NCBI GenBank assembly: GCA_963838705.1
Contig: CAWIRU010000009.1
Span: 737,921 to 801,920, forward strand
DNA length: 64,000 nucleotides
From: an uncultured Acidobacteriota bacterium
GTDB lineage: Bacteria > Acidobacteriota > Terriglobia > Acidiferrales > UBA7541
Direction of reading: 5' to 3'
A program made the position numbers and the translations under genes. This document shows, piece by piece, positions 1 through 11,136 of this stretch. Position 1 is the stretch's first letter, and every line of letters starts with the position of its first letter. A model generated the notes under the pieces. It worked only from the letters and a program-made list of their open reading frames with translations, made no database searches and had not been told where the DNA came from.

Positions 1-269
1 TCCGCTATTCGGGCCAATCGCTCGTCAGTCAAGAATTAGAAGACGCGACATTCCGAAGCGTTGCCCCGCGTACGCGAGCTGCCCGGACACTGGCGCACAG
101 ACAACAATTGCAAAAGGCGCTAGTGTGGGCAATTTCGCGATGCTCGTGCCCACAGGACGTGTGGCTTGAAAAACCGAAAAATGACGCTGTAAAATCGTAG
201 TGAAGTCCTACCTTATTTCAGCCCGTCCGGGCACCCCAAGCTGTATACAGTTTTAAAAGCCAAAAAAAT

Positions 270-307
270 AGTGACGAGTGACAAGTGCCGAGTGACGAGC
301 GGGTGCC
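270..307. repeat. Four direct heptamer repeats (GTGACGA GTGACAA GTGCCGA GTGACGA) about 100 bp upstream of the MarR gene. A near-identical copy lies in reverse orientation at 38697-38732.
   Basis: Read directly: agtgacgagtgacaagtgccgagtgacgagc at 270-300. The reverse complement of 38697-38732 is agtgacgagtgacaagtgacgagtgacgagc. Confidence 0.6.
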
Positions 308-403
308 AGGAGGCACTTTGAGGCTTCCTTCGGGGCTCACGTTCCGCCGGCGGCGGCCCGGGGACGCGAGCTGCAGAGGCCCGGAAATGAGAGGGAGGGT
401 GAG

Positions 404-1057
404 ATGAGCTACAAAATGGTGAGGATACTTGAGGGGCGGGCGATGCGATTTGACTCGCGGGGCGGCGAAGAAGGCATCCCGCGCCAGCGGAGGGACGTGC
501 GCGGGAAGACGTTGCGCGCCTATAGCGCCTACAGCGAACTCAGAGACACGGCGAACTGGATGCGCGAGGAATTGACCGCGCAGCTCAATAATTTCGATCT
601 GTCAATGTGGGAGTTCCGGGTGCTCGATGCGCTGCGCCGCGGTCCGAAGTGCCTCGAAGAGATCAGCCGGGAGATGCAATGCCAGAAGGGGAACGTCGGG
701 AAGGTGGTGCGGAGGCTGGAGGCATGGGGCTGGGTGCGGCGCATGCGGCGAAGATGGGCGCCGGCGAGGGGCGCGAGATCGAGCCGCGCGAGCAAACGAT
801 CGAGAAGCAGCGAGCCGCTGGATCGGCGAATCATTCGCCGGACGTTGACGCCGGACGGAAGAGCGGAACTCAAAAGAATTCATCCCAAGCATGTGAAGCT
901 GGTGAAGGCGTACATGCGCGCGCTCGATGGGCGCGAGCAACTGACGCTCACGCGGCTGTGCATCAAGCTGCGCCGGGGAAACATAGTGAGATTTGCGATG
1001 GAGGCCAAATGCTGGGAGCGCGACGAGAATTGGGCGGAAGGGGTGGGACAGAGGTGA
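404..1057 (+). CDS. MarR-family winged-helix transcriptional regulator with an Arg/Ser-rich insertion of about 26 aa in the wing
   Basis: A GAGGGAGGGTGAG ribosome-binding site lies immediately upstream of the ATG at 404. MarR-like motifs: LSMWEFRVLDALRRGPKCLEEISREM...GNVGKVVRRLEAWGWVRR...DRRIIRRTLTPDGRAEL. Confidence 0.7.
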   Translation: MSYKMVRILEGRAMRFDSRGGEEGIPRQRRDVRGKTLRAYSAYSELRDTANWMREELTAQLNNFDLSMWEFRVLDALRRGPKCLEEISREMQCQKGNVGKVVRRLEAWGWVRRMRRRWAPARGARSSRASKRSRSSEPLDRRIIRRTLTPDGRAELKRIHPKHVKLVKAYMRALDGREQLTLTRLCIKLRRGNIVRFAMEAKCWERDENWAEGVGQR

Positions 1058-1090
1058 GGGACGCGATCCTGGAAGCGTGAGCCGATGTGC

Positions 1091-2278
1091 CTAAGAATCC
1101 AAGCCTAAGATAGTGCGCCATTCGCCGGAGTCGAAATTTCTAAACGAGTCGTCTCGAGACGCGCGCGGCAGAAGCCAGCGCTCGCGCCATTGCTGAACTA
1201 CCTGCTTGAGCGGCCGGTGGTACCATCTAAGTCTTGAAGCTCGTCCGTTTAGGAACGCGGCAGTGTTCGCGGCGAGCGGTGCCACGTAGACTCCTCTGCG
1301 CACACCGTGGCGGAGCAAATCGGCGGGCAAGCGAAGGCGTTCCAGGGTTTTTCGAACGACTCGGATTCTGTAGTTAGGGCCGCTGCCAAAGTTGTACCGT
1401 CGTGTTTCGCGATCCCCGCACGAGTTCAGATAATCGCGGATTTTGACAAATGTCCCATTCGCAAGATGGAAATGCCCATATCCTTCGGTGAAGCCAAGCG
1501 GTTGGAAAATGTTGACCCCATCAAACTTGAGCCGGTTTAAGACCGACGAACTGCCAAGGGCGCTCGTCGTCGTCACCAAGGCAAGCCGCCCGTCAAATTT
1601 TCGGCGGAGAATGATCGATCTTCCCTCCTTATAGCGAAGCGCAAAAACCCGCCGGGTAAAATCACTCGCAGCAAGGAGCGCGATAAATTTGGCCCCGAGG
1701 AGCTGATTGTATGGGGGGACAGCGCCGAGAACGTATGCGTCCATCACGTGGGCCAGCATGCGTTCTCTTTCGCGGACGCCCCAACCGATCCAGGAATCCC
1801 GGGTTCGCAGGTTGAAAACTGGATCTGCAAGGGCAAGAAGGCCGAAGAGTTTGCCATTCGACCGATCGAACACCAAGATGCGGAAGCGACGGCCGTATCC
1901 TTTTGAAACGGGAACACTCCACCAAAGGCAGGCGATACGAAACAGAGCTGAAAACTCCTCGTTATCGTCGACGACAACTGGGTACGGGTTCACACGCGAC
2001 GGGTCGACGTCCGATCCGGATGCAAAGTATTTGGATACTTTCGGGAACCAGTGACTGACAAATTTCTTCTCGTCGTCGAGTCGGTCTTGCCGAAAATGGG
2101 AGTGTATTTTGCGAATTCGAGCTTTGCTGCGTCCCGATGGGTTTAGCTGGTAGTCCTGTCCGAGTCCGAAACCTTGTTTTCGAAGCAGTCGCAACAGCTG
2201 GCGCCGCAGTTTCTTCCCAGCCGGTGGGAGATCGGCGCAGGAGTATCGATGTGATAGATGGGGTCGCGCCGTCGTCAT
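1091..2278 (-). CDS. Hypothetical 395-aa protein. It is the last gene of the NurA-HerA cassette, and its start overlaps the HerA stop by 4 nt. No family recognised by eye.
   Basis: A long ORF in a region of lower GC than its surroundings. The ATGA overlap at 2275-2278 with the upstream HerA gene implies co-translation. No motifs I can assign; whether it belongs to a defence-associated DUF family needs an HMM search. Confidence 0.55.
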   Translation of the reverse strand: MTTARPHLSHRYSCADLPPAGKKLRRQLLRLLRKQGFGLGQDYQLNPSGRSKARIRKIHSHFRQDRLDDEKKFVSHWFPKVSKYFASGSDVDPSRVNPYPVVVDDNEEFSALFRIACLWWSVPVSKGYGRRFRILVFDRSNGKLFGLLALADPVFNLRTRDSWIGWGVRERERMLAHVMDAYVLGAVPPYNQLLGAKFIALLAASDFTRRVFALRYKEGRSIILRRKFDGRLALVTTTSALGSSSVLNRLKFDGVNIFQPLGFTEGYGHFHLANGTFVKIRDYLNSCGDRETRRYNFGSGPNYRIRVVRKTLERLRLPADLLRHGVRRGVYVAPLAANTAAFLNGRASRLRWYHRPLKQVVQQWRERWLLPRASRDDSFRNFDSGEWRTILGLDS

Positions 2279-3921
2279 TTCTTATAGAGTTTGTTCGCTA
2301 CGAATTTGTCAAACTCGACCACCCTGACAGGGATCACGAAAGGGTGGGAGGACGTCACAAAATACAGATTGCCTGGTATCGTTTCCCTTTGGATGAAAGC
2401 GCTAACGACTCCGTCATAGTTGACGTTGGATCTTACCAGAGCTTTGATGTCGTCGGTGTTGCCCATGTAGAATGCGAAGAAGTTTTCTGCTTGGCTCCGG
2501 ATCTCTTCTGAGATTGCGGATGGCCTTTGGGTAATTGCTACCAGACCAATTCCGAACTTCCTGCCTTCCTTTGCGACGTGAACGAAAGGGTTGCTCGACG
2601 AACGCACCTGCTCGTCTGAGAGTACGTTTTGGGCCTCTTCAACGATCACAACGCACCGTATGATTTGGTCGTCCTGCGCTTCAGTGAAGTTTCGTTTGTT
2701 ATCCTCGAATAGCTTGCGCACGATCATGGTTGAAATTATTGACGCGTCGACCGCGTCTCGAAGCGACATGTCAATGATCACGGTCTTGCCTTCTCGCAAC
2801 GCCTTGAATGTGTCCTCTATCAGAGTGGAAGTTGACGAGTGAACGCCTCCCTCGTCGATGAAGTGACGAATCCGCTTGCGTATCGCCATAATGGTCCCGC
2901 GCGCGCTCTTGTCCTGCTTTTTATCGTCCCCTTCAGCCTTGGCACCGAAGAAATCCGGGAAATCTCTGTACAAATTCTGCGGAGAATCACAGTATGCGTC
3001 GATTTTTTTTATGAAGCCCTCGACCTGCCTGTCATCCAAGTAGAGTAGGAACGATTTCATCACCTCGGAGAACCCAGTCGAAAAGGTTAGGATGTCCCCG
3101 ACGGTCATATGTTTATGAGTATTGATCTGCACTCTGCCCATGTACGAGAATTTCGTCGACTTTGAGATTTTGCGATCGGAGTACACGACTAGGTTTTTAC
3201 GCACTTGATCGTCGTCAACGTCTCCCAAGCCAGTCGTCTGAGATGCCGTTTTCGAATAGTACTCACCGTTCAAATCGAATACGAGTTTTCCGAACGAATT
3301 ATCGTTTATCGTGTTGTAGAGCAGAACCTTCATCAGATTTGTCTTTCCAAATCCCGATTGGGCGAACACCATGGTTCTCTTTGATTTCAATCGCGAGGTA
3401 TCAAACCGGATCTCGCCTTTATCTGACTGAATCTCCTCACCAATGCAGATATTGCCTAGCGATACTCCGCTTTCGTTGCCCATGTTGAGGATGTATTTGA
3501 CCTCTGAGGGTTGGAGGTGCCTGGCGTGATAGGAGACCACCGGAAGCTTTCTCACAGCGGTGGTAAATGAGATCGAGGTCCCACGATCTTCGAAGGTACC
3601 GAGCATTTTTACTTTATACGTGTAGCTAAACATCTTCTGCTTGTCTCTGTCGGACAGCTCGCGCTCGGCGATGCGTGCATAATGTACAGCCACTAGGGTC
3701 TTATCCTGCGACCGGAACAGCGGGTCTTCGTCGTAGACTTCCGCCTCGACTCGCGCCAAGTATTTCTGACCACCCTCGTTCTTCGGGGAAAGAACTATAA
3801 AATCGCCAATTCTTGGAGACGCCTTGGCATCTTCATAGGAAGAGTAGATCAACAGGGCGTCTTCGGTCGTTTTTTGCCCGTAAAGGACTCCGAAGTCTTT
3901 GCGCTCCACAGTACGCTCCAT
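2275..3921 (-). CDS. herA: HerA/FtsK-like (DUF87) P-loop ATPase
   Basis: Walker A FAQSGFGKTNLMKVLL. Walker B-like VVIVEEAQNV. LVAITQRPSAISEEI sensor motif typical of HerA/VirB4-type ATPases. The region is AT-richer than the flanks. The stop abuts the NurA-like gene and the start overlaps the downstream gene. Confidence 0.8.
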   Translation of the reverse strand: MERTVERKDFGVLYGQKTTEDALLIYSSYEDAKASPRIGDFIVLSPKNEGGQKYLARVEAEVYDEDPLFRSQDKTLVAVHYARIAERELSDRDKQKMFSYTYKVKMLGTFEDRGTSISFTTAVRKLPVVSYHARHLQPSEVKYILNMGNESGVSLGNICIGEEIQSDKGEIRFDTSRLKSKRTMVFAQSGFGKTNLMKVLLYNTINDNSFGKLVFDLNGEYYSKTASQTTGLGDVDDDQVRKNLVVYSDRKISKSTKFSYMGRVQINTHKHMTVGDILTFSTGFSEVMKSFLLYLDDRQVEGFIKKIDAYCDSPQNLYRDFPDFFGAKAEGDDKKQDKSARGTIMAIRKRIRHFIDEGGVHSSTSTLIEDTFKALREGKTVIIDMSLRDAVDASIISTMIVRKLFEDNKRNFTEAQDDQIIRCVVIVEEAQNVLSDEQVRSSSNPFVHVAKEGRKFGIGLVAITQRPSAISEEIRSQAENFFAFYMGNTDDIKALVRSNVNYDGVVSAFIQRETIPGNLYFVTSSHPFVIPVRVVEFDKFVANKLYKK

Positions 3922-5199
3922 TCAAAATCTGGAATGTAGATCTAAGAACAGGTTCTCGATGTCTGTGTGATCCATCTGCTGCGCGGAATAAAGCGCGGCC
4001 TTGACGCGGGCGATGGCTTGCTGTTTAAAGTCGGCGGTCAGCGTAACCATGTTATGAGCTTCGACGAGTGGGTATGGATATCCTAAGATATAGTGCTCCT
4101 GGGTGGTTGACGTAAGTTCGTACATGATCTCCGCGGCAGTCTCGTAATCGCGGGCCATCACCCCGTCGGCGATACGAGGGATGCAGTCGTAGATGTTCAG
4201 ATCACAGATCAGCCAATCGTAGTTTTGCAGTTTTTCCACGTAGTCAAGTCGCGCCGCAAAAAAGAGACCGAACCCACGCCCTCCTGAAATTGCCTTTTTC
4301 GCATACATGTTGCTGCTGCTCGTCTCGTAGGCGGACTCTAAAACGTCGTCGCGGACCTCGAAATAACAGCAGAGCTTCTGACCTTTTGGATCAGTTGTTT
4401 TGAAGGGGAAGGTGGGCTTGAGCTTCGATTGAAGGTAAACGTCGATCTTTGAAAACGTGTAGGCTAGTTCAGTCTTTATCGGGCTTTGCTTAGTGACTCC
4501 GATAGCGCGAATTTGCCTGCTATGAAGAAGGTATCCCAACTTGATTAAGTACGGCTGCTTGATATGAAGGCTTCGAAGTGGCCCGTCCCGCAAAATAAAA
4601 TCGCCGGCTTCAACGTGGCAGTGCTGGACTATGTCATAGATGCTTGCCCATTCAAGTACATCTTGACAGAAACCCAACAGCGTACCGGGGTTGCGTACGA
4701 GGACTTCCTTTTTATACGCGAATACGGCGTCAGGCGTGTCATCGAACAGAGACAACAACGCAGCTGTCACAGGAAGCGCAATAAATTCGTCGTAGATATC
4801 GCTCAGATGCTTTTCATTTAGAACTAGCATTTTGTTGCCGTGGAAGACCTTCCCCAGGGTGATGGGATCGTCGCCTGGGCTCATTCGAACCTGCTTTCCA
4901 TGTTGGAAACAAACATACCCAGCTTGGTAGAAGCAGAGCTGTACGCCGTTATAAAAAGCGTGGCTATTTTGGCTTCCGTCGACGGCATAGAATTTCGGCG
5001 CCCGCGTGTCGATCTGGTCAAAGGGCATGATTTCGAAGACTTGAGGCGTCTCAAGGTTGCCCGCTACTCCCACTACGGGAATTTGGTAATCCTTATTCGT
5101 TTTCGTGTGGATTTGCGATGCGACGCCGTCGATTACGTCGTCAGGAATTTCAAATGAGGACATTTGTTTGATTCGCCTGGTGTCATCGTACATGACCAA
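3922..5199 (-). CDS. nurA: NurA-like nuclease (RNase H-like fold), partner of HerA
   Basis: NurA signature KFYAVDGSQ (motif I DGS), followed by a second acidic motif FILRDGPL. The size (425 aa) and position immediately upstream of HerA match the archaeal/bacterial NurA-HerA arrangement. The true start may be M13 at 5163. Confidence 0.65.
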   Translation of the reverse strand: MVMYDDTRRIKQMSSFEIPDDVIDGVASQIHTKTNKDYQIPVVGVAGNLETPQVFEIMPFDQIDTRAPKFYAVDGSQNSHAFYNGVQLCFYQAGYVCFQHGKQVRMSPGDDPITLGKVFHGNKMLVLNEKHLSDIYDEFIALPVTAALLSLFDDTPDAVFAYKKEVLVRNPGTLLGFCQDVLEWASIYDIVQHCHVEAGDFILRDGPLRSLHIKQPYLIKLGYLLHSRQIRAIGVTKQSPIKTELAYTFSKIDVYLQSKLKPTFPFKTTDPKGQKLCCYFEVRDDVLESAYETSSSNMYAKKAISGGRGFGLFFAARLDYVEKLQNYDWLICDLNIYDCIPRIADGVMARDYETAAEIMYELTSTTQEHYILGYPYPLVEAHNMVTLTADFKQQAIARVKAALYSAQQMDHTDIENLFLDLHSRF

Positions 5200-5264
5200 C
5201 GAGATGCGGTGCCACTTACGTGCCCAACTAGTACCTGATGCAAGAAATTGACAGCGCGTCGAGT

Positions 5265-6230
5265 CTGAGATCCGCCCCTACGGACGGACGATGAAAAAAC
5301 GCCGGCGGGACGCCAGCGCGACGAAAGAAACGGCGGAAGGAAAAGACGTGCCGGGCTTCCCGACAGGGTCGGGTCCGGTGGCAGGACTCCGATGGAGTCT
5401 ACCGGACACCCGGAACCGGAGACGCGCACAGCGCGAAAGCCCGGCGCTACATGTGGGGCGGAAATGGCGGAAGGGGCCGAAGGGCCTTACCTCGTCCCGA
5501 CAGGTTCGGGACGCCGGCAGAGGCCCAGGCGGAAGAGAGACGTGAACCACATCTGTGCGGACGGAAGAGCGGACGCCTCGTCGCCGCACCAAATCCTTAC
5601 ATGAAGCCCGTTTGATTTCCCGCCAACAGTCTGCTAGGGTGGTTGCGGAGCTATGACCGAAAGGTACATGTACGGTGCGATTAACGGGGGGAACGGAGCG
5701 GGAATGCGCTCAATTCTAACCGGGACACCAAAACAATTAGAAATCGCTGTAAACCATAGAAAACAAAACATGGAGGTCGTTTCTAACCGGGACACGAAAA
5801 GGGGGTGTTTTCGGACGTGATTAGCGGCGCGGAAATAGCGGGGCGGGGCCGGCGGACGCCCCTTCGAACGTCAGGACACGATCCCAAGAACGGCAAGAAT
5901 TGAAGAGAAAAACGCCGGCGGGACGCCAGCGCGACGAGGGACAGGGCGAGGAGAAAAACGGCGGCCCTTCGAGGCTTTCTTCGAGGCTTAGGGCAGGCGG
6001 GGTAAACGAGACCGGTGGAGAATTCGAAAGGCCGGGCGGGTCTGAGACCCGCCCCTACGACAGGACGAAAAGAAATACGCCGGCGAGACGCCAGCGCGAC
6101 GAACGGCAGGGATCGAAGAGAAAGACGCCGGCCCTTCGAGGCGAAAGGCCGGGCGTCCGCCGCGGCGGACGCCCATGCGACGGCGCGAAGAGAAATACGC
6201 CGGCGGGACGCCAGCGCGACGAAAAGGAAA
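5265..6230. repeat. Non-coding repeat-rich region containing four or more copies of a degenerate element. The core is acgccggcgggacgccagcgcgacga at about 5298, 5915, 6078 and 6198; the longer about 65-bp versions start at about 5265 and 6043. There are also short palindromes (ggcgggtctgagacccgcc) and a 15-bp direct repeat ttctaaccgggacac (x2, about 5716 and 5783) in an AT-rich stretch.
   Basis: Read directly. Spacing is irregular (about 620, 160, 120 bp), so this is not a CRISPR array. The six-frame ORFs here (KTPAGRQRDE repeated) are translation artefacts of the DNA repeat. Confidence 0.7.
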
Positions 6231-6292
6231 CGCCCGGATCGCGAACGGTTTGCGCTCGCGAGCCGGGCGGTTGAATTTGTGTTGCGCGGTTG

Positions 6293-8470
6293 TTACGGCT
6301 TGTCTTTGTCCTTTTCTTTCTCCGGCTTTTCTTTTGGTGGCTTCTTGTCGGTGGCCTTTGGCGGCTTATCCGTGGTGGTTCTTGCCGGTGGCGGCTGAGA
6401 TGCCGGCGGCTTCGACTCGGTCGAAGGCGCAGGCGGGCGATTTGGTTCGGGCTTGACCTCAGGCACCTTTGGTTCTGGCTTGACCGCCGGGGGCGTAGCT
6501 GACGGCGGGCGATTTGGTTCGGGCTTGACCTCTGGCACCTTTGGTTCTGGCTTGACCGCCGGGGGCGTAGCTGACGGCGGACGAGTTGGCGCGGGCTTGA
6601 CCTCGGGCACCGTTGGTTCTGGCTTGACCGCCGGAGGATGAGCCGCCGGCGGACGGTTGCCCGGATTTTCGTTTGGAGTCGTTGCGGCCGGCTTCGGCGG
6701 CTGATTTGGATTTGTCGCTGGAGCCGCGCCGGACGGCTGAGCCGATGGCGGACGATCCGAGCGCATGCCTGGATTTCCGGCGGCGCCGGGAGCGGGCCGC
6801 GACGGCGGCTGGGCTGGAGGCGCTGCTGCAGGCTTATTCCCCGCGGCGGGCTGGCCGGGCTTCATTCCGCCACCGGGCGCGGGTGTCGGAGGCCGCGATG
6901 TCACTGGCGGCGCGACGCGTACCGCCGCCTGCGGCGCTCTTCCTGCCGCCGGCGCGGTGGGCCGAATGGCGCTCAGTTGCGCGGGAGCGAGAGGCTTGCC
7001 TGCGTTGGCTTGTAGCGCCTTCTGCTGCGCGGCAAACGGAACCGGCGCGGGAGGCGGCGCGGTCTTCGCGACCACCGGACGCGAAATTGCCGCGGCCGGC
7101 GGTTTGGCGACCGCAGTCATTTTACCCGCTCCGAACTGGCTTCGTGGTTGCGGCGCGACGCCTGCGCCGGCGGCGGTTCCGACCGGCGCCCGCGCGAGCT
7201 CGGTCGCGTTCACTTGCACGACACTTCTGGAAATCGGTTGCGCCGAGGTGAACGCATTTTGCGACGTCGCGGTCACGTAGGTGCGATTCACGTACGTAAC
7301 GTTGGTCACGTTGGTGTGCGATTGGTAGTTGTTGTAAACGTTTGTGACGTACGTGCGCTCGACCACCGTGTTCGTGATATTTACGTTGGTGACGTAAGTG
7401 CGGCTCACGGCGTACGGCGGCATGTAAACTTCACGCGGCCCGAGCGGAAACCACGCTACGCCGAAACCCACGCCAACTCCGCCGCCGACCCACGCCACGA
7501 GCGCGGGCGAGTAAACCGGCCGGACGCCGACAACAACCGGGCCCGGAGTCCAACCCCAGTAACCACCGACCATAACCCAGCGGCCGTAATGAAATGGCGC
7601 GTAGCCCCAAGATGCATCGTCAACCCACGTCCATCCCCACGGCCCAATCCACGCCCAGTGGCCGTAGCGGTAGGGCGCCCATCCGGCGACGACTCCGTTC
7701 GGAACCCATACCTGGCCATAGTCCGGCACGTTTTGCCAGCGGCCGTTGTCGTCGAGGTCTTCGTAACCGACGACGTCTTGCGAGACGTAGCGCGGGGCGC
7801 GATCTTCGCGGACGTCGAGCGTGTTGCACCAACCGTCGAAATCATCGGTGGCGATCGCTGTGCCGATATCCGGCGTGAGTTGATCGGTGCCGACGAATGT
7901 TGCGGTCTGATTCGCGTAGATCGTGAATGCTTGTCCGCCACCGGTGACTTCGCCCTGGCCGCCGCGGACGGTGACAATCGTCGTGTCGCCGTTTTCATTT
8001 ACACCGACGCGATAGTCGCCGGGCCGCAGCAATGAGAACGCCAAATTTGGCGTGTCAATTTCAAAAGACTCATTGTCGCCAAGCGAGCGCAGGTGAACGT
8101 TGACTGTGCCTTCGTTGATGCTGATCTGCGCGATCTGATCGTCGAGATTTAGAATCGTGAACGCCGTCTGCGAGCCGAGGCGTATTCCTGCCGAGCCGAG
8201 GACCACCTCGGCGCGTGAATCCTGATCCGACCAGAGCTTGTCTCCGGTCGTGATTGGGCGATTGACGTCCGCCGCGCCCCAATCATCGGCGCCTGCGGGC
8301 TGAACGGATACAGAGCCCTCAACACTGCGCAGTCGAGCTACGCGAGCCGGAGGATCGTTATCATCGGCCGCCGCGATTTGCGGCAGGCAAACGAACAAAA
8401 GTGCTGCGACAAGAATTCCCGCGAGAATTTTCAAGAAAGGCCAGCGTGTCATAGTAGGTTTTCGCTCCAA
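6293..8470 (-). CDS. Secreted FecR-domain / DUF6600-like protein with YxWGxG-type Trp/Gly repeats and a Pro-rich tandem-repeat C-terminus
   Basis: Signal peptide MTRWPFLKILAGILVAALLFVCLPQIAAA. FecR-like beta-rich N-terminal domain. WAPYRYGHWAWIGPWGWTWV / WGYAPFHYGRWVMVGGYWGWTPGP repeats. A C-terminal PPAVKPEPKVPEVKPEPNRPPSAT unit repeated, which corresponds to an about 63-bp DNA tandem repeat x3 at about 6430-6640. Confidence 0.75.
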   Translation of the reverse strand: MERKPTMTRWPFLKILAGILVAALLFVCLPQIAAADDNDPPARVARLRSVEGSVSVQPAGADDWGAADVNRPITTGDKLWSDQDSRAEVVLGSAGIRLGSQTAFTILNLDDQIAQISINEGTVNVHLRSLGDNESFEIDTPNLAFSLLRPGDYRVGVNENGDTTIVTVRGGQGEVTGGGQAFTIYANQTATFVGTDQLTPDIGTAIATDDFDGWCNTLDVREDRAPRYVSQDVVGYEDLDDNGRWQNVPDYGQVWVPNGVVAGWAPYRYGHWAWIGPWGWTWVDDASWGYAPFHYGRWVMVGGYWGWTPGPVVVGVRPVYSPALVAWVGGGVGVGFGVAWFPLGPREVYMPPYAVSRTYVTNVNITNTVVERTYVTNVYNNYQSHTNVTNVTYVNRTYVTATSQNAFTSAQPISRSVVQVNATELARAPVGTAAGAGVAPQPRSQFGAGKMTAVAKPPAAAISRPVVAKTAPPPAPVPFAAQQKALQANAGKPLAPAQLSAIRPTAPAAGRAPQAAVRVAPPVTSRPPTPAPGGGMKPGQPAAGNKPAAAPPAQPPSRPAPGAAGNPGMRSDRPPSAQPSGAAPATNPNQPPKPAATTPNENPGNRPPAAHPPAVKPEPTVPEVKPAPTRPPSATPPAVKPEPKVPEVKPEPNRPPSATPPAVKPEPKVPEVKPEPNRPPAPSTESKPPASQPPPARTTTDKPPKATDKKPPKEKPEKEKDKDKP

Positions 8471-8844
8471 TTTGAACTGGTGGTCTCGGCCGGTTGAGCC
8501 AGCAGCGACTCGTGCGAACTGCGTTACATCCTATAACGGGTATGGCAAGAGACTCAAAGGCGTTCGAATTCGCTGCGACTCATTGTCTGGTGATTCGATG
8601 CCCCTGAAGATGCGGCGGTTGCGCGGGTTCAAACTGCGTTTTCTCGGCGCCAGATCCTTATTCAATGCGAAGCTCCGCCGTTGCCGCCGTTCGACCATAA
8701 AACCCGGTTCGGATGAAATAGTTCCATCGTAGTACGTCGGTACCATAGCCTGGACTTGCAGGCCCATTGAAAATGGGAAACGGGCGCGGGTTTTCGATTC
8801 CGATCGGCGATTTTACGTGACGCGTAGCCCTGCCCGGTATCGCT

Positions 8845-11136
8845 ATGCCATCAACCATACGGCCGACCGAACCGCCCGTCAAATCGCCCGCTGAGTCGTC
8901 GGTGGCGTCGCGCGTATCTGCGACGCACTCGCGTGTTGCGCCATCTCCGGCATCCCGAATCGCGGCGATTTCTGCCGAAATTCCGCTCGAAATCCACGGC
9001 TCGCGAAAATCGCTCACGGATGGGCATCCCATTGAAGCTTTCCACGAGGACACCGTCAGCGTCATCGTGTTCCCAAATGGCGGAATCGTCCGGCTCGCCG
9101 CGGGTGTGTCCAAGGGACAGATGGTTGCGGTGACGAATCTGAACACGCAGCGCGGGATGCTGTGCCGCGTGGCCAACGTGCGCACGTATCCCAATCTGAA
9201 AAGCTACGTCGAAATCGAATTCACGCAGTCTGCACCAGGCTTTTGGGGCGTGAAATTTCCGGCTGAGGTAGCAGCGCCTTCCGATTCGCCCGCAACGCAG
9301 GCTCCAGAGCCGCCAGCGCCAGCGAAGCAGGACGCTGGTCCACCAGTCGTGCCTTCTTCACGGCAGCGCGAACCTGAAATTCCATCAAGCAATGCCGCTG
9401 CGGATGAACCGACTCTCGTTCACGTCAGCGCGGACGAAGAGAATGCGCATCCTGAAATCGAGGCGCCCGCCAGACAGACGGAATTGAAGCCCGAGGATTT
9501 CTGGGGCGCGAGTTTCCCGGCGGAGATGATTGATGCCGTCGCAGCTCCTCGCGCGTCGAGCGCAAAGCCAGCCGCGCCTGCCCCGCCCGCATCGAAATCT
9601 CCGTCGCCTGCGGCCAACGCGCCAACGGCGGAAGCCGCGAACGCCGAGCCCATTGATCTCGCGATTGATGATGATGAGACCTGGTCCGATTTGCTCTCTC
9701 AACTCCCGACGAGGCCTGAGAAGCCGGTCCCCCCTCGGCCGCCGGAAATCTCCGAAGACGATTTGCATCTCGAGAGCGTGGCGCCGCCGGCGAATGCCCC
9801 GGTTGCGCGAGCCCCGATTACGGAGTCCTTGCCTTCCGAAACGTCGGCTTTCAAACCGCTGCCTCCCGAACAGCCGGCGGTTTCGCCCTTGCCGTCACCG
9901 AATTCGAATCCGGCCTCGCCTGCGGCTTTGAAAGAATTAGAGCGATTGGCGCTCGGACATCTCGATACGAACCAGGACGAGCCCGCCGCCCACCGGCCGG
10001 CGAGAATTGCCGGACCAGTCCAGAAGCCGAAGCATGGATCGCCGGACCTCGCGAATTTTGAGCGCCCGCTCGAGCACCGTCTGGCTTCGAGTGCGGCGCC
10101 GTTGCATTCCTTTACCACGCCATCGGACGGCGGCATCCCACTGCCGTCGCAAGCGCTCCCGGCATCAAGCGGCGAAAAACCAAGCTTCGGCAACTTTCTG
10201 AAAGATCCCGAGCCGCGGACATCCGCTCAGCGCGTTTTTTCCGAGCATTCGGATGTCATGACCGCCAGCCTTCTCGCTCCAACTCCGCCGCTGCACGCGC
10301 AATCAGCGAGTGGGTCGAATTCGGGCTTCCTCCTCGCGGCGGCCGCTGTCGTGATTCTGGCGCTCGGAGGCGCCTGGTTTTTTATTGAGAATGTGAGCAA
10401 TTCTCCAGCGCAGCCCGCAGTCGTTGGAAAGCCCGCGGGTGAACAAGCTCCTTTGCCGCCGGGGAATTTGCGGCCGAACGCCGAGCCGTACGAGACGCCG
10501 CAGGGCGCGGATGGTCCGTCATCAGCGGCCGGCGCGGATTCAAATCCTGGCACACCGGAGACTGGTGTCGAGGTTGAGCTAACGACGGCCGTGACGCCAC
10601 CTTCAAAGGACGGCGCCTCTCCGGCTCCGTCGCCGAAATCGCAAGCGAAACCGGCGAACCGGCGCTCGTCGATTCCGCCATTGAGTTTGAGCGCGCCGAC
10701 TACGGACAACGACGGCCCATCGAGCACCAACGTTGAGGCACCACCTGACGTCCCCGGCGGCGCGGCCGCGCCAACCAGCGGAGACACGCTGAGCAAATTC
10801 GGCGCGAACGCGGGCGTCAACATTCCGCGCCCGGCGGTTCCAAATCCATCGGCGGCAGCTCCCACCGGCGGCAAAGTGACTCAGCCGCGGCTAATTTGGT
10901 CGACGCCGCCTGTCTACCCAGTCGCCGCGAAACAGAACGACATTCAAGGCGACGTCAAAATCGACGCGACAATCAACGAATCCGGCCACGTCGCGAAGAT
11001 GAAAGCCATCTCAGGGCCGTTCCTCTTGCAGCAGCCGGCGATGGACGCCGTCCGGCAGTGGAAATACGAGCCTTCGACGCTCGACGGCAAGCCCGTTGCG
11101 GTTCAACTCGTAGTCACTGTTCAGTTTCGGCGCTGA
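8845..11136 (+). CDS. TonB C-terminal-domain protein with a PilZ-like N-terminal beta-barrel, a long Pro/Ala-rich linker and one TM helix
   Basis: C-terminal TonB domain RLIWSTPPVYPVAAKQNDIQGDVKIDATINESGHVAKMKAISGPFLLQQPAMDAVRQWKYEPSTLDGKPV. TM helix FLLAAAAVVILALGGAWFFI. The N-terminal approx. 130 aa (SRKSL...VSVIVFPNGGIVRLAAGVSKGQMVAVTNLNTQRGMLCRVANV) resembles a degenerate PilZ domain. The true start is uncertain. Confidence 0.65.
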   Translation: MPSTIRPTEPPVKSPAESSVASRVSATHSRVAPSPASRIAAISAEIPLEIHGSRKSLTDGHPIEAFHEDTVSVIVFPNGGIVRLAAGVSKGQMVAVTNLNTQRGMLCRVANVRTYPNLKSYVEIEFTQSAPGFWGVKFPAEVAAPSDSPATQAPEPPAPAKQDAGPPVVPSSRQREPEIPSSNAAADEPTLVHVSADEENAHPEIEAPARQTELKPEDFWGASFPAEMIDAVAAPRASSAKPAAPAPPASKSPSPAANAPTAEAANAEPIDLAIDDDETWSDLLSQLPTRPEKPVPPRPPEISEDDLHLESVAPPANAPVARAPITESLPSETSAFKPLPPEQPAVSPLPSPNSNPASPAALKELERLALGHLDTNQDEPAAHRPARIAGPVQKPKHGSPDLANFERPLEHRLASSAAPLHSFTTPSDGGIPLPSQALPASSGEKPSFGNFLKDPEPRTSAQRVFSEHSDVMTASLLAPTPPLHAQSASGSNSGFLLAAAAVVILALGGAWFFIENVSNSPAQPAVVGKPAGEQAPLPPGNLRPNAEPYETPQGADGPSSAAGADSNPGTPETGVEVELTTAVTPPSKDGASPAPSPKSQAKPANRRSSIPPLSLSAPTTDNDGPSSTNVEAPPDVPGGAAAPTSGDTLSKFGANAGVNIPRPAVPNPSAAAPTGGKVTQPRLIWSTPPVYPVAAKQNDIQGDVKIDATINESGHVAKMKAISGPFLLQQPAMDAVRQWKYEPSTLDGKPVAVQLVVTVQFRR

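What the first reader, a model, noticed from the sequence alone, without database searches (positions are those of the whole stretch)
1091..5199. AT-rich island carrying a coupled NurA-like nuclease / HerA ATPase / unknown 395-aa protein cassette: candidate novel defence or DNA-processing system
Three minus-strand genes are packed with no gaps. The NurA stop abuts the HerA start, and the HerA stop overlaps the start of the third gene (ATGA). The three genes sit in a stretch that is clearly AT-richer than the high-GC flanks, which is a horizontal-transfer signature.

HerA-family ATPases paired with a nuclease or effector (Sir2-HerA, DUF4297-HerA) are established anti-phage systems. NurA-HerA is known mainly as an archaeal or Deinococcus end-resection machine. 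A bacterial NurA-HerA pair with an obligately coupled third protein of unknown fold, on an island, is not a described defence system as far as I know.

The 395-aa protein has no motif I can assign. It could be a sensor, a regulator or a second effector.
Basis: partly seen in the sequence, partly recalled or inferred. Interest (0 to 1): 0.85.

Follow-up and report, generated by a model that had tools for sequence, protein, structure and literature searches.

The report
NurA–HerA nuclease motor with DruA
A compact, horizontally spread three-gene cassette pairs a DNA-pumping ATPase and its nuclease with DruA, a protein so far known from the Druantia anti-phage system; it is probably an undescribed anti-phage or anti-plasmid module, and it offers a simple setting for finding out what DruA does.

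Summary
The three minus-strand genes are real, packed as described, and form the lowest-GC stretch of the window.

The "unknown" 395-aa protein is not unknown. It is a full-length DruA (DUF4338, Pfam 1.5e-80; 40% identical to DruA of true DruABCDE operons), with a GNAT acyltransferase fold and pI 10.9.

HerA and the NurA-like protein are closest to TdpA/TdpB, the restriction half of the TdpABC phosphorothioate defence system. NurA–HerA machines in defence are therefore already known.

The new part is the combination:
- 47 of 47 NurA-seeded loci and 14 of 14 DruA-seeded loci with enough sequence carry the same trio.
- Hosts span at least four phyla, and the neighbours vary.
- The trio is about 8 GC points below its flanks.
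- All three genes are under strong purifying selection.
- There is no fourth partner, no DruBCDE and no TdpC.
- PADLOC v2 has no model matching the nuclease, and no held paper links Druantia with NurA.

Best reading: a self-contained defence module. HerA–NurA degrades DNA and DruA supplies discrimination, most likely by an acyl-type self-mark (restriction-modification logic). Phage-encoded DUF4338 homologues fit this. Defence itself is untested.

Verdict: a new variant of a known kind; interest about 0.6.

The parts
3922..5163 (-). NurA-like nuclease gene (413 aa; the ORF extends to a TTG at 5199, which is probably not the start)
4972..4980 (-). NurA motif DGS (D62 of the 413-aa protein), the first catalytic Asp of the RNase-H-like nuclease
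   Evidence: Invariant in 46 and in 85 homologues. Coordinates verified by translation.
4582..4593 (-). NurA motif LRDG (D193)
   Evidence: Aligns to GDYILMDG of S. solfataricus NurA and to IKDG of TdpB. Invariant.
4054..4083 (-). NurA C-terminal motif GYPYPLVEAH (H370)
   Evidence: Aligns to GYPFPLLKAH of S. solfataricus NurA. Invariant.
2275..3921 (-). HerA-family hexameric ATPase/translocase gene (548 aa)
   Evidence: Pfam DUF87/HerA 1.9e-19 and PADLOC HerA 2.8e-28. Best PDB relative is TdpA, 5e-25, aligned in both the N- and C-terminal parts. 62-89% identical in other trios.
3340..3354 (-). HerA Walker A, GFGKT (K193)
   Evidence: G, F, G and K are conserved in at least 95% of 63 sequences. 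Aligns to GFGKS of TdpA. Coordinates verified.
2632..2643 (-). HerA Walker B, VEEA (E428/E429)
   Evidence: Conserved. The same EEA form occurs in TdpA and in Sulfolobus HerA. Coordinates verified.
2521..2532 (-). HerA TQRP motif (region of the arginine finger and sensor in the HerA/FtsK clade)
   Evidence: Conserved in 63 sequences. Aligned to TQSP of TdpA and SQRP of Sulfolobus HerA.
1091..2278 (-). DruA (DUF4338) gene, 395 aa, pI 10.9
   Evidence: Pfam DruA 1.5e-80 and PADLOC DruA 1e-123. 40% identical end to end to the DruA of a Ralstonia DruABCDE operon. pI and net charge.
1463..1987 (-). GNAT-fold core of DruA (residues about 98-272)
1688..1717 (-). DruA motif PPYNQLLGAK, at the beta4-alpha3 position where GNATs bind the CoA pyrophosphate
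   Evidence: P188, G195 and K197 are invariant across trio DruAs, Druantia I DruAs and phage DUF4338 proteins. The position is inferred from the model's secondary structure.
2275..2278 (-). ATGA overlap of the HerA stop and the DruA start (translational coupling)
   Evidence: Sequence read directly. The same overlap is seen in related loci.
3919..3924 (-). TGA-ATG junction of NurA and HerA
   Evidence: Sequence read directly.
1091..5250 (.). Low-GC tract that coincides with the cassette
   Evidence: DNA similarity to other trios is confined to about 1099-5165.

Best explanation
The locus is a self-contained, horizontally spread three-gene anti-invader module.

Shown:
- HerA is an intact HerA/FtsK-clade ATPase.
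- The upstream protein is an intact NurA-fold nuclease.
- The closest solved relatives of both are TdpA and TdpB. TdpAB is the restriction half of the TdpABC phosphorothioate system.
- The third protein is a bona fide DruA: a GNAT acyltransferase fold, very basic.
- The three genes always travel together.

Inferred:
- A HerA hexamer threads duplex DNA into a NurA dimer, which degrades it, as in TdpAB and archaeal HerA-NurA.
- DruA decides what is degraded.

My preferred sub-model has restriction-modification logic. DruA transfers an acyl-type group onto host nucleic acid, most likely DNA, as a self-mark. This would be analogous to TdpC for TdpAB, and to the GNAT-fold DNA modifier Mom. The mark stalls or excludes HerA-NurA. 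Unmarked incoming DNA is translocated and destroyed.

The same DruA output would be read by DruBCDE in Druantia type I.

I put the probability that this is a defence or anti-mobile-element module of some kind at about 0.7. I put the self-marking sub-model at about 0.35-0.4.
For: Module identity: for HerA and NurA and their closeness to TdpAB; for DruA and true DruABCDE operons.

Intact catalytic motifs.

Obligate linkage: 47/47 and 14/14 loci (also 13-15, 19, 98-101).

No fourth partner: among 133 flanking ORFs no family recurs more than 3-4 times. Those that do include DNA methylases, the PADLOC candidate families mad2/mad3 and PDC-S41/S48, a SLFN-type helicase and integrases.

Horizontal spread:
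- The trio occurs in Dormibacterota, Bdellovibrionota, Terriglobia and Aminicenantes.
- It averages 8 (NurA/HerA) or 6 (DruA) GC points below its flanks in 36 loci.
- DNA similarity is confined to the three CDS.
- An IS3 sits inside NurA in L002.

Selection: pS 0.76-0.96 against pN 0.07-0.26.

DruA acts as an exchangeable, trans-acting module:
- In L093/L098, trios with clade-C NurA/HerA carry a DruA of another lineage, on the opposite strand. That DruA is closer to Druantia I DruAs.
- DUF4338 is also fused to DndF or sits next to FtsK-like translocases.

Support for marking logic:
- The architecture is the same as tdpABC: motor, nuclease and a single modifying enzyme.
- DruA has pI 10.9 and a net charge of +36.
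- Its fold resembles the DNA modifier Mom.
- T4-like cyanophages and a pelagiphage encode DUF4338 homologues inside or near DNA-replication gene blocks. They keep the invariant core residues, as phages do with orphan methylases.
- From my own knowledge: Druantia type II has a methylase, DruM, where type I has DruA.
Against: - No experiment shows defence or any DruA chemistry.
- DruA evolves faster than HerA and NurA and has been exchanged. That pattern is more typical of sensors than of modification enzymes.
- Burroughs and co-workers interpret the DUF4338 domain fused to DndF as a protein-targeting co-effector.
- In this window the cassette has no defence neighbours.
- The NurA family is unusually uniform: a single 50%-identity cluster. 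That is atypical of fast-diversifying immune genes.
- The trio was not found on plasmids or viral contigs.
Confidence: 0.38

Rival explanations
1. It is a defence module, but DruA is the infection sensor or switch rather than a self-marking enzyme. DruA would recognise a phage product or DNA structure, or acetylate HerA/NurA or a phage protein. It would then license the HerA-NurA degradation machine.
For: - DruA is the fastest-evolving of the three genes.
- It has been swapped between lineages while NurA-HerA stayed, as sensors often are.
- The same DruA family serves two different effector sets, DruBCDE and NurA-HerA.
- Tight translational coupling to HerA in clade A suits a stoichiometric partner.
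Against: - Exchange of DruA lineages, and its convergent orientation in L093/L098, argue against a co-evolved physical interface.
- A conserved cofactor-loop motif points to catalysis rather than mere binding.
- Phage-encoded full-length homologues are harder to explain on this model.
Confidence: 0.25
2. It is a defence module with two effectors. HerA-NurA attacks DNA. DruA is a back-up, abortive-infection toxin, for example acetylating aminoacyl-tRNA like TacT/AtaT, or acetylating host proteins.
For: - A strongly basic protein could bind tRNA.
- The DndF-fused DUF4338 domain was interpreted as a suicidal co-effector.
Against: - No antitoxin-like partner is present.
- DruA stays intact where the nuclease gene is broken (L002, L102). 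This is unexpected for an unguarded toxin.
- Phage-encoded homologues in or near replication modules do not fit a host-killing toxin.
Confidence: 0.1
3. It is a housekeeping DNA double-strand-break end-resection machine (bacterial NurA-HerA as in Deinococcus) with a GNAT accessory regulator, and not an immune system.
For: - NurA fold and HerA family.
- Very strong purifying selection and an unusually uniform family.
- The neighbours in this window are ordinary genes.
Against: - The distribution is patchy and crosses phyla, with different neighbours each time.
- GC is consistently lower than the flanks.
- There are IS-disrupted and frameshifted copies.
- There is no linkage to mre11/rad50/recJ-type genes.
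- The obligate partner belongs to a defence family.
Confidence: 0.1
4. It is machinery of a mobile element for DNA processing or transfer, like the NurA-like/TdtA (HerA-type) pair of Thermus ICEth1 that drives DNA donation.
For: - A precedent exists in which a NurA-like nuclease and a HerA-type pump are required for transjugation.
- Some loci have IS or primase-like neighbours.
Against: - No integrase, tRNA target, direct repeats or conserved flanks accompany the trio.
- It is absent from the plasmid and viral collections searched.
- Only the three CDS are conserved.
Confidence: 0.05

Closest known systems
TdpABC (phosphorothioate-based restriction-modification system; TdpA HerA-like hexamer and TdpB NurA-like nuclease, PDB 8wet/8wfd; An et al., Nat Chem Biol 2025, cited in PMC12914056)
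   Different: Sequence identity is only about 14% for the nuclease. There is no TdpC or any phosphorothioation enzyme; the third gene is a GNAT-fold DruA. The nuclease family here is sharply separated from all other NurA/TdpB-like proteins.
Druantia type I (DruABCDE)
   Same: The 395-aa protein is a full-length DruA, 40-44% identical to the DruA of DruABCDE operons on Ralstonia and Nitrosococcus plasmids and in Haloferula. In a tree, the window's DruA clade groups with these.
   Different: DruB, DruC, DruD and the roughly 1800-aa DruE helicase (DUF1998) are absent. NurA-HerA takes their place, and DruA is the last gene rather than the first.
Two-gene HerA defence systems (SIR2-HerA and DUF4297-HerA)
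   Same: A HerA-family ATPase is coupled to an effector enzyme in a compact mobile operon. PADLOC HerA models match at 1e-12 to 3e-28. Solved HerA chains of such complexes match at about 1e-10 to 1e-13.
   Different: The effector is NurA-fold, not SIR2 or DUF4297, and a third obligatory gene is present.
Canonical NurA-HerA end-resection complexes (Sulfolobus, Thermococcus, Deinococcus)
   Same: The folds and catalytic motifs are the same.
   Different: There is no Mre11/Rad50 linkage. The distribution is patchy and horizontally transferred, and DruA is an obligate partner. These complexes are more distant than TdpAB.
DndFGH-type 'HerA/FtsK capture' systems with a DUF4338 (GNAT) domain fused to DndF (Burroughs and co-workers, NAR 2024, PMC10853773)
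   Same: A DUF4338 GNAT domain is combined with a HerA/FtsK-type translocase and a nuclease in a counter-invader system. This HerA also hits DndH models.
   Different: There the domains are parts of giant multidomain proteins (DndF, DndH) with a restriction-endonuclease-fold nuclease. Here there are three small separate proteins with a NurA nuclease.

Membership tests
DruA / DUF4338 (PF14236) | Match to the family profile above the curated threshold over the whole domain | tested here: met
   271 bits against a cutoff of 27, profile positions 4-297 of 297. PADLOC DruA 411 bits.
DruA / DUF4338 (PF14236) | Same full-length architecture as the DruA encoded in DruABCDE operons | tested here: met
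   End-to-end BLASTP alignment, 40% identity, E=2e-96, to the Ralstonia pUW163a DruA.
Druantia type I system | DruE: a large (about 1800-2000 aa) DUF1998-containing helicase next to DruA | tested here: not met
   The longest ORF in the 64-kb window is 1129 aa and is sortilin-like. None of the 47+14 trio loci shows a DruE-sized gene in the conserved unit.
Druantia type I system | DruB, DruC and DruD genes between DruA and DruE | tested here: not met
   DruA is flanked by HerA on one side and a convergent MarR-like gene 33 nt away on the other.
TdpABC | TdpA-like HerA ATPase | tested here: met
   The best PDB hit is TdpA, 5e-25, aligned over both halves.
TdpABC | TdpB-like NurA-fold nuclease | tested here: met
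TdpABC | TdpC, the single phosphorothioate-synthesising enzyme | tested here: not met
   The third gene is DruA. No recurrent extra gene appears in 133 flanking ORFs.
TdpABC | Phosphorothioate-dependent discrimination of self DNA | not testable with these tools
   Needs biochemistry or mass spectrometry.
NurA nuclease family (PF09376) | RNase-H-like NurA fold with the conserved DGS, (R/M)DG and GYP(F/Y)PL..AH motifs | tested here: met
HerA ATPase (HerA/FtsK clade) | Central DUF87 ATPase domain with Walker A, Walker B (EEA) and a TQRP-type motif | tested here: met
Canonical NurA-HerA repair module | Stable chromosomal position and linkage to recombination or repair genes (mre11/rad50 in archaea) | tested here: not met
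   Neighbours differ in every lineage and no repair gene recurs.
SIR2-HerA / DUF4297-HerA | A SIR2 or DUF4297 effector next to HerA | tested here: not met
   The partners are NurA and DruA.
GNAT acyltransferase superfamily (for DruA) | GNAT fold | tested here: met
GNAT acyltransferase superfamily (for DruA) | Acyl-CoA binding and transfer activity | not testable with these tools
   The only evidence is an invariant P..LGxK loop at the expected position.

The most novel reading that the evidence does not exclude
DruA is a GNAT-fold enzyme that installs a previously unknown acyl-type mark on host DNA (or another nucleic acid). Two unrelated motor-nuclease effectors read that mark as 'self': NurA-HerA here, and DruBCDE in Druantia type I. 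T4-like cyanophages and pelagiphages carry DUF4338 homologues to counterfeit the mark. This would be a new class of epigenetic self/non-self discrimination. It would also supply the missing mechanism of Druantia type I.
Probability: 0.25. Interest if true: 0.85.

Novelty: new variant of a known kind. Interest (0 to 1): 0.6.

Why it matters
Druantia type I has been known since 2018, but in the literature I could reach no function is assigned to DruA. Its DruE is predicted to lack an active nuclease.

This cassette puts DruA next to a much simpler and structurally understood effector, a HerA hexamer with a NurA dimer. It is therefore a minimal three-protein system in which DruA's activity can be tested.

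The family is also large: at least 334 metagenome loci and 1065 nuclease clusters at 90% identity. It lives almost only in uncultured soil and sediment lineages, and PADLOC v2 has no model matching its nuclease. So it is a blind spot in present defence-system catalogues.

If DruA marks DNA, this would add a new chemistry to restriction-modification-type immunity.

Tried and rejected
- Transposon-like borders. blastn of window 1-7000 against all loci shows similarity only inside the three CDS (about 1099-5165). There are no conserved flanks or terminal repeats.
- tRNA or integrase context. No tRNA occurs in the 64 kb and no integrase is adjacent.
- Non-coding RNA. There is no Rfam match in 1-9000 at E<=0.1.
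- Promoters. Consensus sigma-70 sites are at chance level.
- Phage or plasmid carriage of the trio. None was found in IMG/VR by pattern scans or in PLSDB by tblastn.
- A NurA-DruA or HerA-DruA fusion as a Rosetta stone. The Roseivivax 662-aa DUF4338 protein has GHKL-ATPase neighbours, not HerA. The long forms in Haloplanus and Hymenobacter look DndFGH-like instead.
- Asking whether the nuclease decays first while DruA persists, as evidence for restriction-modification addiction. L002 (IS3 in NurA plus frameshifts), L012 and L102 fit. L028 and L064 do not. Several frameshifted copies may be assembly or long-read sequencing errors (my inference, not checked). So I treat this as inconclusive.
- Source organism. 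Exact look-ups returned only short Logan contigs and no name. Acidobacteriota is only a guess from composition and from the Terriglobia relative.
- The paper by An et al. 2025 could not be opened. Details of TdpAB action are from my memory of it.

Full report
**1. What is in the sequence**

Three minus-strand ORFs occupy 3922-5199, 2275-3921 and 1091-2278. The stop of the first is followed directly by the ATG of the second (TGAATG). The second and third overlap by ATGA.

The first gene most likely begins at the ATG at 5163. Nearly all homologues are 413 aa, and an identical 413-aa protein is on record.

GC of the tract is 0.513 against 0.591 for the rest of the window. It is the lowest-GC 4.1-kb stretch of the 64 kb (z = -3.2). 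The two upstream genes are at 0.49-0.50 and the third at 0.556. GC3 is 0.60-0.62 against 0.67-0.78 in most neighbours.

The surroundings are ordinary genes. They include a convergent MarR-like gene 33 nt away, a DUF6600 protein, a TonB-like protein, a glycosyltransferase, G6PD and aconitase. There is no tRNA, integrase or other defence gene.

**2. Identity of the three proteins**

*HerA.* It matches Pfam DUF87/HerA (1.9e-19) and a dozen PADLOC HerA models (best 2.8e-28), and also DndH models. Walker A (GFGKT), Walker B (VEEA) and TQRP are conserved in 63 sequences. Its best solved relative is TdpA (5e-25), aligned in both halves. This is ahead of Sulfolobus HerA (2e-13) and the HerA chains of the SIR2 and DUF4297 systems.

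*The upstream protein.* By sequence it is only weakly NurA (Pfam 7e-6). Its AlphaFold model (pLDDT 86) is unambiguous:
- then Argonaute PIWI and EndoV domains

Foldseek gives TdpB at E=7e-13. The NurA motifs DGS, LRDG and GYPYPLVEAH are invariant and align with those of solved NurA and TdpB.

*The 'unknown' 395-aa protein.* It is DruA:
- Pfam PF14236 at 1.5e-80 over the whole profile
- PADLOC DruA at 1e-123
- 40% identity end to end with the DruA of a Ralstonia plasmid, where it heads a classic operon of DruA, three further genes and a roughly 1850-aa helicase

The same type I architecture is seen in Nitrosococcus and Haloferula.

This agrees with the statement in PMC10853773 that DUF4338 is a GNAT domain.

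The protein is extremely basic (pI 10.9, 70 K+R against 34 D+E). A loop PPYNxLLGAK sits where GNATs bind the CoA pyrophosphate. Its P, G and K are invariant across all DruA lineages examined.

**3. The trio is a conserved unit**

Close DruA homologues (61-79% identical) are abundant. Every one whose contig could be read carries NurA-HerA upstream.

Of the 80 loci kept:
- all 56 with at least 1.7 kb downstream have HerA
- all 47 with at least 3.1 kb downstream have HerA and DruA
- all 14 DruA-seeded loci with room upstream have NurA and HerA

Hosts named in genome records are Dormibacterota, Bdellovibrionota, Terriglobia and Aminicenantes.

The neighbours are unrelated from lineage to lineage. 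Among 133 flanking ORFs, 134 Pfam families were hit and none recurred more than three times. PADLOC hits in the flanks are scattered: DNA methylases, mad2/mad3, PDC-S41/S48 and Nhi-like helicases. So there is no fourth component, and only a loose association with defence islands.

DNA similarity between loci stops at the ends of the coding regions.

In 36 loci the trio averages 8 (NurA/HerA) or 6 (DruA) GC points below its flanks, while tracking host GC (r = 0.9).

Against even the closest relatives, synonymous sites are saturated (pS 0.76-0.96) and pN is 0.07-0.26. These are old, functional, strongly constrained genes that have moved between phyla.

The nuclease family is remarkably compact. 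Among 1.84 billion 50%-identity representatives there is one full-length representative. The next full-length proteins appear only at E of about 1e-9.

Decayed copies exist: IS3 inside NurA in L002, and frameshifts in L012, L028, L064 and L102.

The trio was not found on plasmids (PLSDB) or on IMG/VR viral contigs.

**4. DruA behaves as an exchangeable module**

NurA and HerA trees define clades A (the window), B and C. The identities are 55-61% for NurA and 67-70% for HerA between clades.

The DruAs of clades B and C are only about 32% identical to those of clade A. Clade A DruAs group with Druantia type I DruAs (39-42%).

Three clade-C loci (L090, L093, L098) have DruA on the opposite strand. 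For the two whose DruA could be placed in the tree (L093, L098), it belongs to the Druantia-I-like lineage.

So DruA has been replaced by another DruA while the association itself was kept.

Elsewhere DUF4338 occurs fused in long proteins next to FtsK-like translocases (DndFGH-like) or GHKL ATPases.

DruA is therefore a self-contained module that works with different DNA motors. This argues that it acts through a product or target, rather than through a co-evolved interface (inference).

**5. Phage homologues**

tblastn against phage genomes finds DUF4338 proteins in a pelagiphage (E=2e-11) and in T4-like cyanophages. In phage S-SCSM2R the gene lies among clamp, clamp-loader and RegA genes. 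One record labels the protein 'methylcarbamoylase mom'.

Both phage proteins pass Pfam's DruA threshold. They belong to phrog_19197 and keep the invariant core residues.

The Phold preprint independently noted DruA-like folds in six Synechococcus phages.

The Mom label has no sequence support against solved Mom, so it counts only as a hint.

**6. Mechanism**

*Shown:* an intact HerA motor, an intact NurA-fold nuclease and an intact GNAT-fold DruA, always together, horizontally mobile and under purifying selection.

*Inferred from TdpAB and archaeal HerA-NurA structures:* a HerA hexamer feeds duplex DNA to a NurA dimer, which degrades it.

The role of DruA is the open step. I favour restriction-modification logic: DruA marks self nucleic acid, HerA-NurA destroys unmarked DNA. 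The reasons are:
- The nearest characterised system, tdpABC, has exactly this three-part plan, with a single modifying enzyme. From my memory of An et al. 2025, phosphorothioate inhibits TdpAB on self DNA.
- DruA is highly basic and catalytic-looking.
- It can be exchanged and can be transcribed convergently.
- From my own knowledge, Druantia type II carries a methylase where type I carries DruA.
- Phages carry stand-alone homologues, as they do with methylases.

Against this:
- GNATs usually acylate proteins or small molecules.
- DruA evolves faster than its partners.
- Burroughs and co-workers read the fused domain as a protein-directed co-effector.

I put 'defence or anti-mobile-element module' at about 0.7. 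Within that, I put marking at about 0.35-0.4, sensor or regulator at about 0.25 and second abortive effector at about 0.1. Housekeeping repair is about 0.1, and a transfer function like Thermus ICEth1 TdtA/NurA is about 0.05.

**7. Comparison with what is known, and novelty**

It works like TdpAB, and more generally like HerA-plus-effector systems. It borrows DruA from Druantia type I. It is a member of none of these:
- no TdpC
- no DruB-E
- no SIR2 or DUF4297
- no Mre11/Rad50 context

PADLOC v2 has no model that matches the nuclease. Only four held papers mention DUF4338 and none describes this trio. No held paper contains both 'Druantia' and 'NurA'.

I therefore class it as a new variant of a known kind: a new combination of known modules that defines a large, overlooked family.

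Noticed in passing
window 5299-6222: There are four same-orientation copies of a 26-nt sequence, ACGCCGGCGGGACGCCAGCGCGACGA, at 5299, 5912, 6077 and 6197. Three are exact and one has one mismatch. None occurs elsewhere in the 64 kb, and 0 are expected by chance. On the minus strand each forms a 9-bp GC hairpin followed by a T-run, so it looks like a terminator. They lie in the 1.1-kb non-coding gap between the DUF6600 gene and the NurA gene. They are not conserved in other trio loci.
   Followed up: partly
window 6432-6659: A 72-nt tandem repeat (3.2 copies, 91-94% matches) lies inside the proline-rich C-terminal part of the DUF6600 protein gene (6293-8470, minus strand).
   Followed up: no
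window 404-1057: A MarR-type winged-helix regulator gene converges on the DruA stop with only 33 nt between them. It has an unusually long Arg/Ser-rich insertion. It gives weak, sub-threshold hits to the winged-helix families wHTH-PRTase_assc and HTH_Cmi2_C. It is not conserved next to other trios.
   Followed up: partly
L090, L093, L098 (for example L093:5892-6923): In these clade-C trios DruA lies on the opposite strand, convergent with HerA. In L093 and L098 it also belongs to a different DruA lineage (41-42% identical to clade A and Druantia I DruAs, 34% to other clade-C DruAs). L090's DruA hit is cut off by the contig end. This indicates replacement of DruA by another DruA.
   Followed up: yes
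L002:4320-5599; L102:3263-3838; L104:869-2035: An IS3 element is inserted inside the NurA gene of L002. In L102 an IS200/IS605 Y1 transposase sits next to a trio whose NurA has a frameshift. In L104 a D5_N/DUF5906 primase-like gene neighbours the trio.
   Followed up: partly
L099:7888-10005, L100:8188-11346, L101:5194-7182: Long DUF4338 fusion proteins (662-1052 aa) occur on archaeal and bacterial plasmids. They sit next to giant FtsK-like translocases (Haloplanus, Hymenobacter) or next to two GHKL (HATPase_c_3) ATPases (Roseivivax). These are further, uncharacterised DruA-containing architectures.
   Followed up: partly
L107:3797-4918 (Synechococcus phage S-SCSM2R); L108:3551-4849 (Pelagibacter phage Mosig): T4-like marine phages encode DUF4338/DruA-family proteins (phrog_19197). 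In S-SCSM2R the gene lies within the DNA-replication gene block. In Mosig it sits among 2OG-Fe(II) oxygenase, Smc-like and MazG genes. One is annotated 'methylcarbamoylase mom' without sequence support.
   Followed up: partly
search result: The nuclease of the trio forms a single 50%-identity cluster among 1.84 billion representatives. There are no intermediates to other NurA/TdpB-like proteins. This is unusually uniform for a putative immune gene found in several phyla.
   Followed up: no
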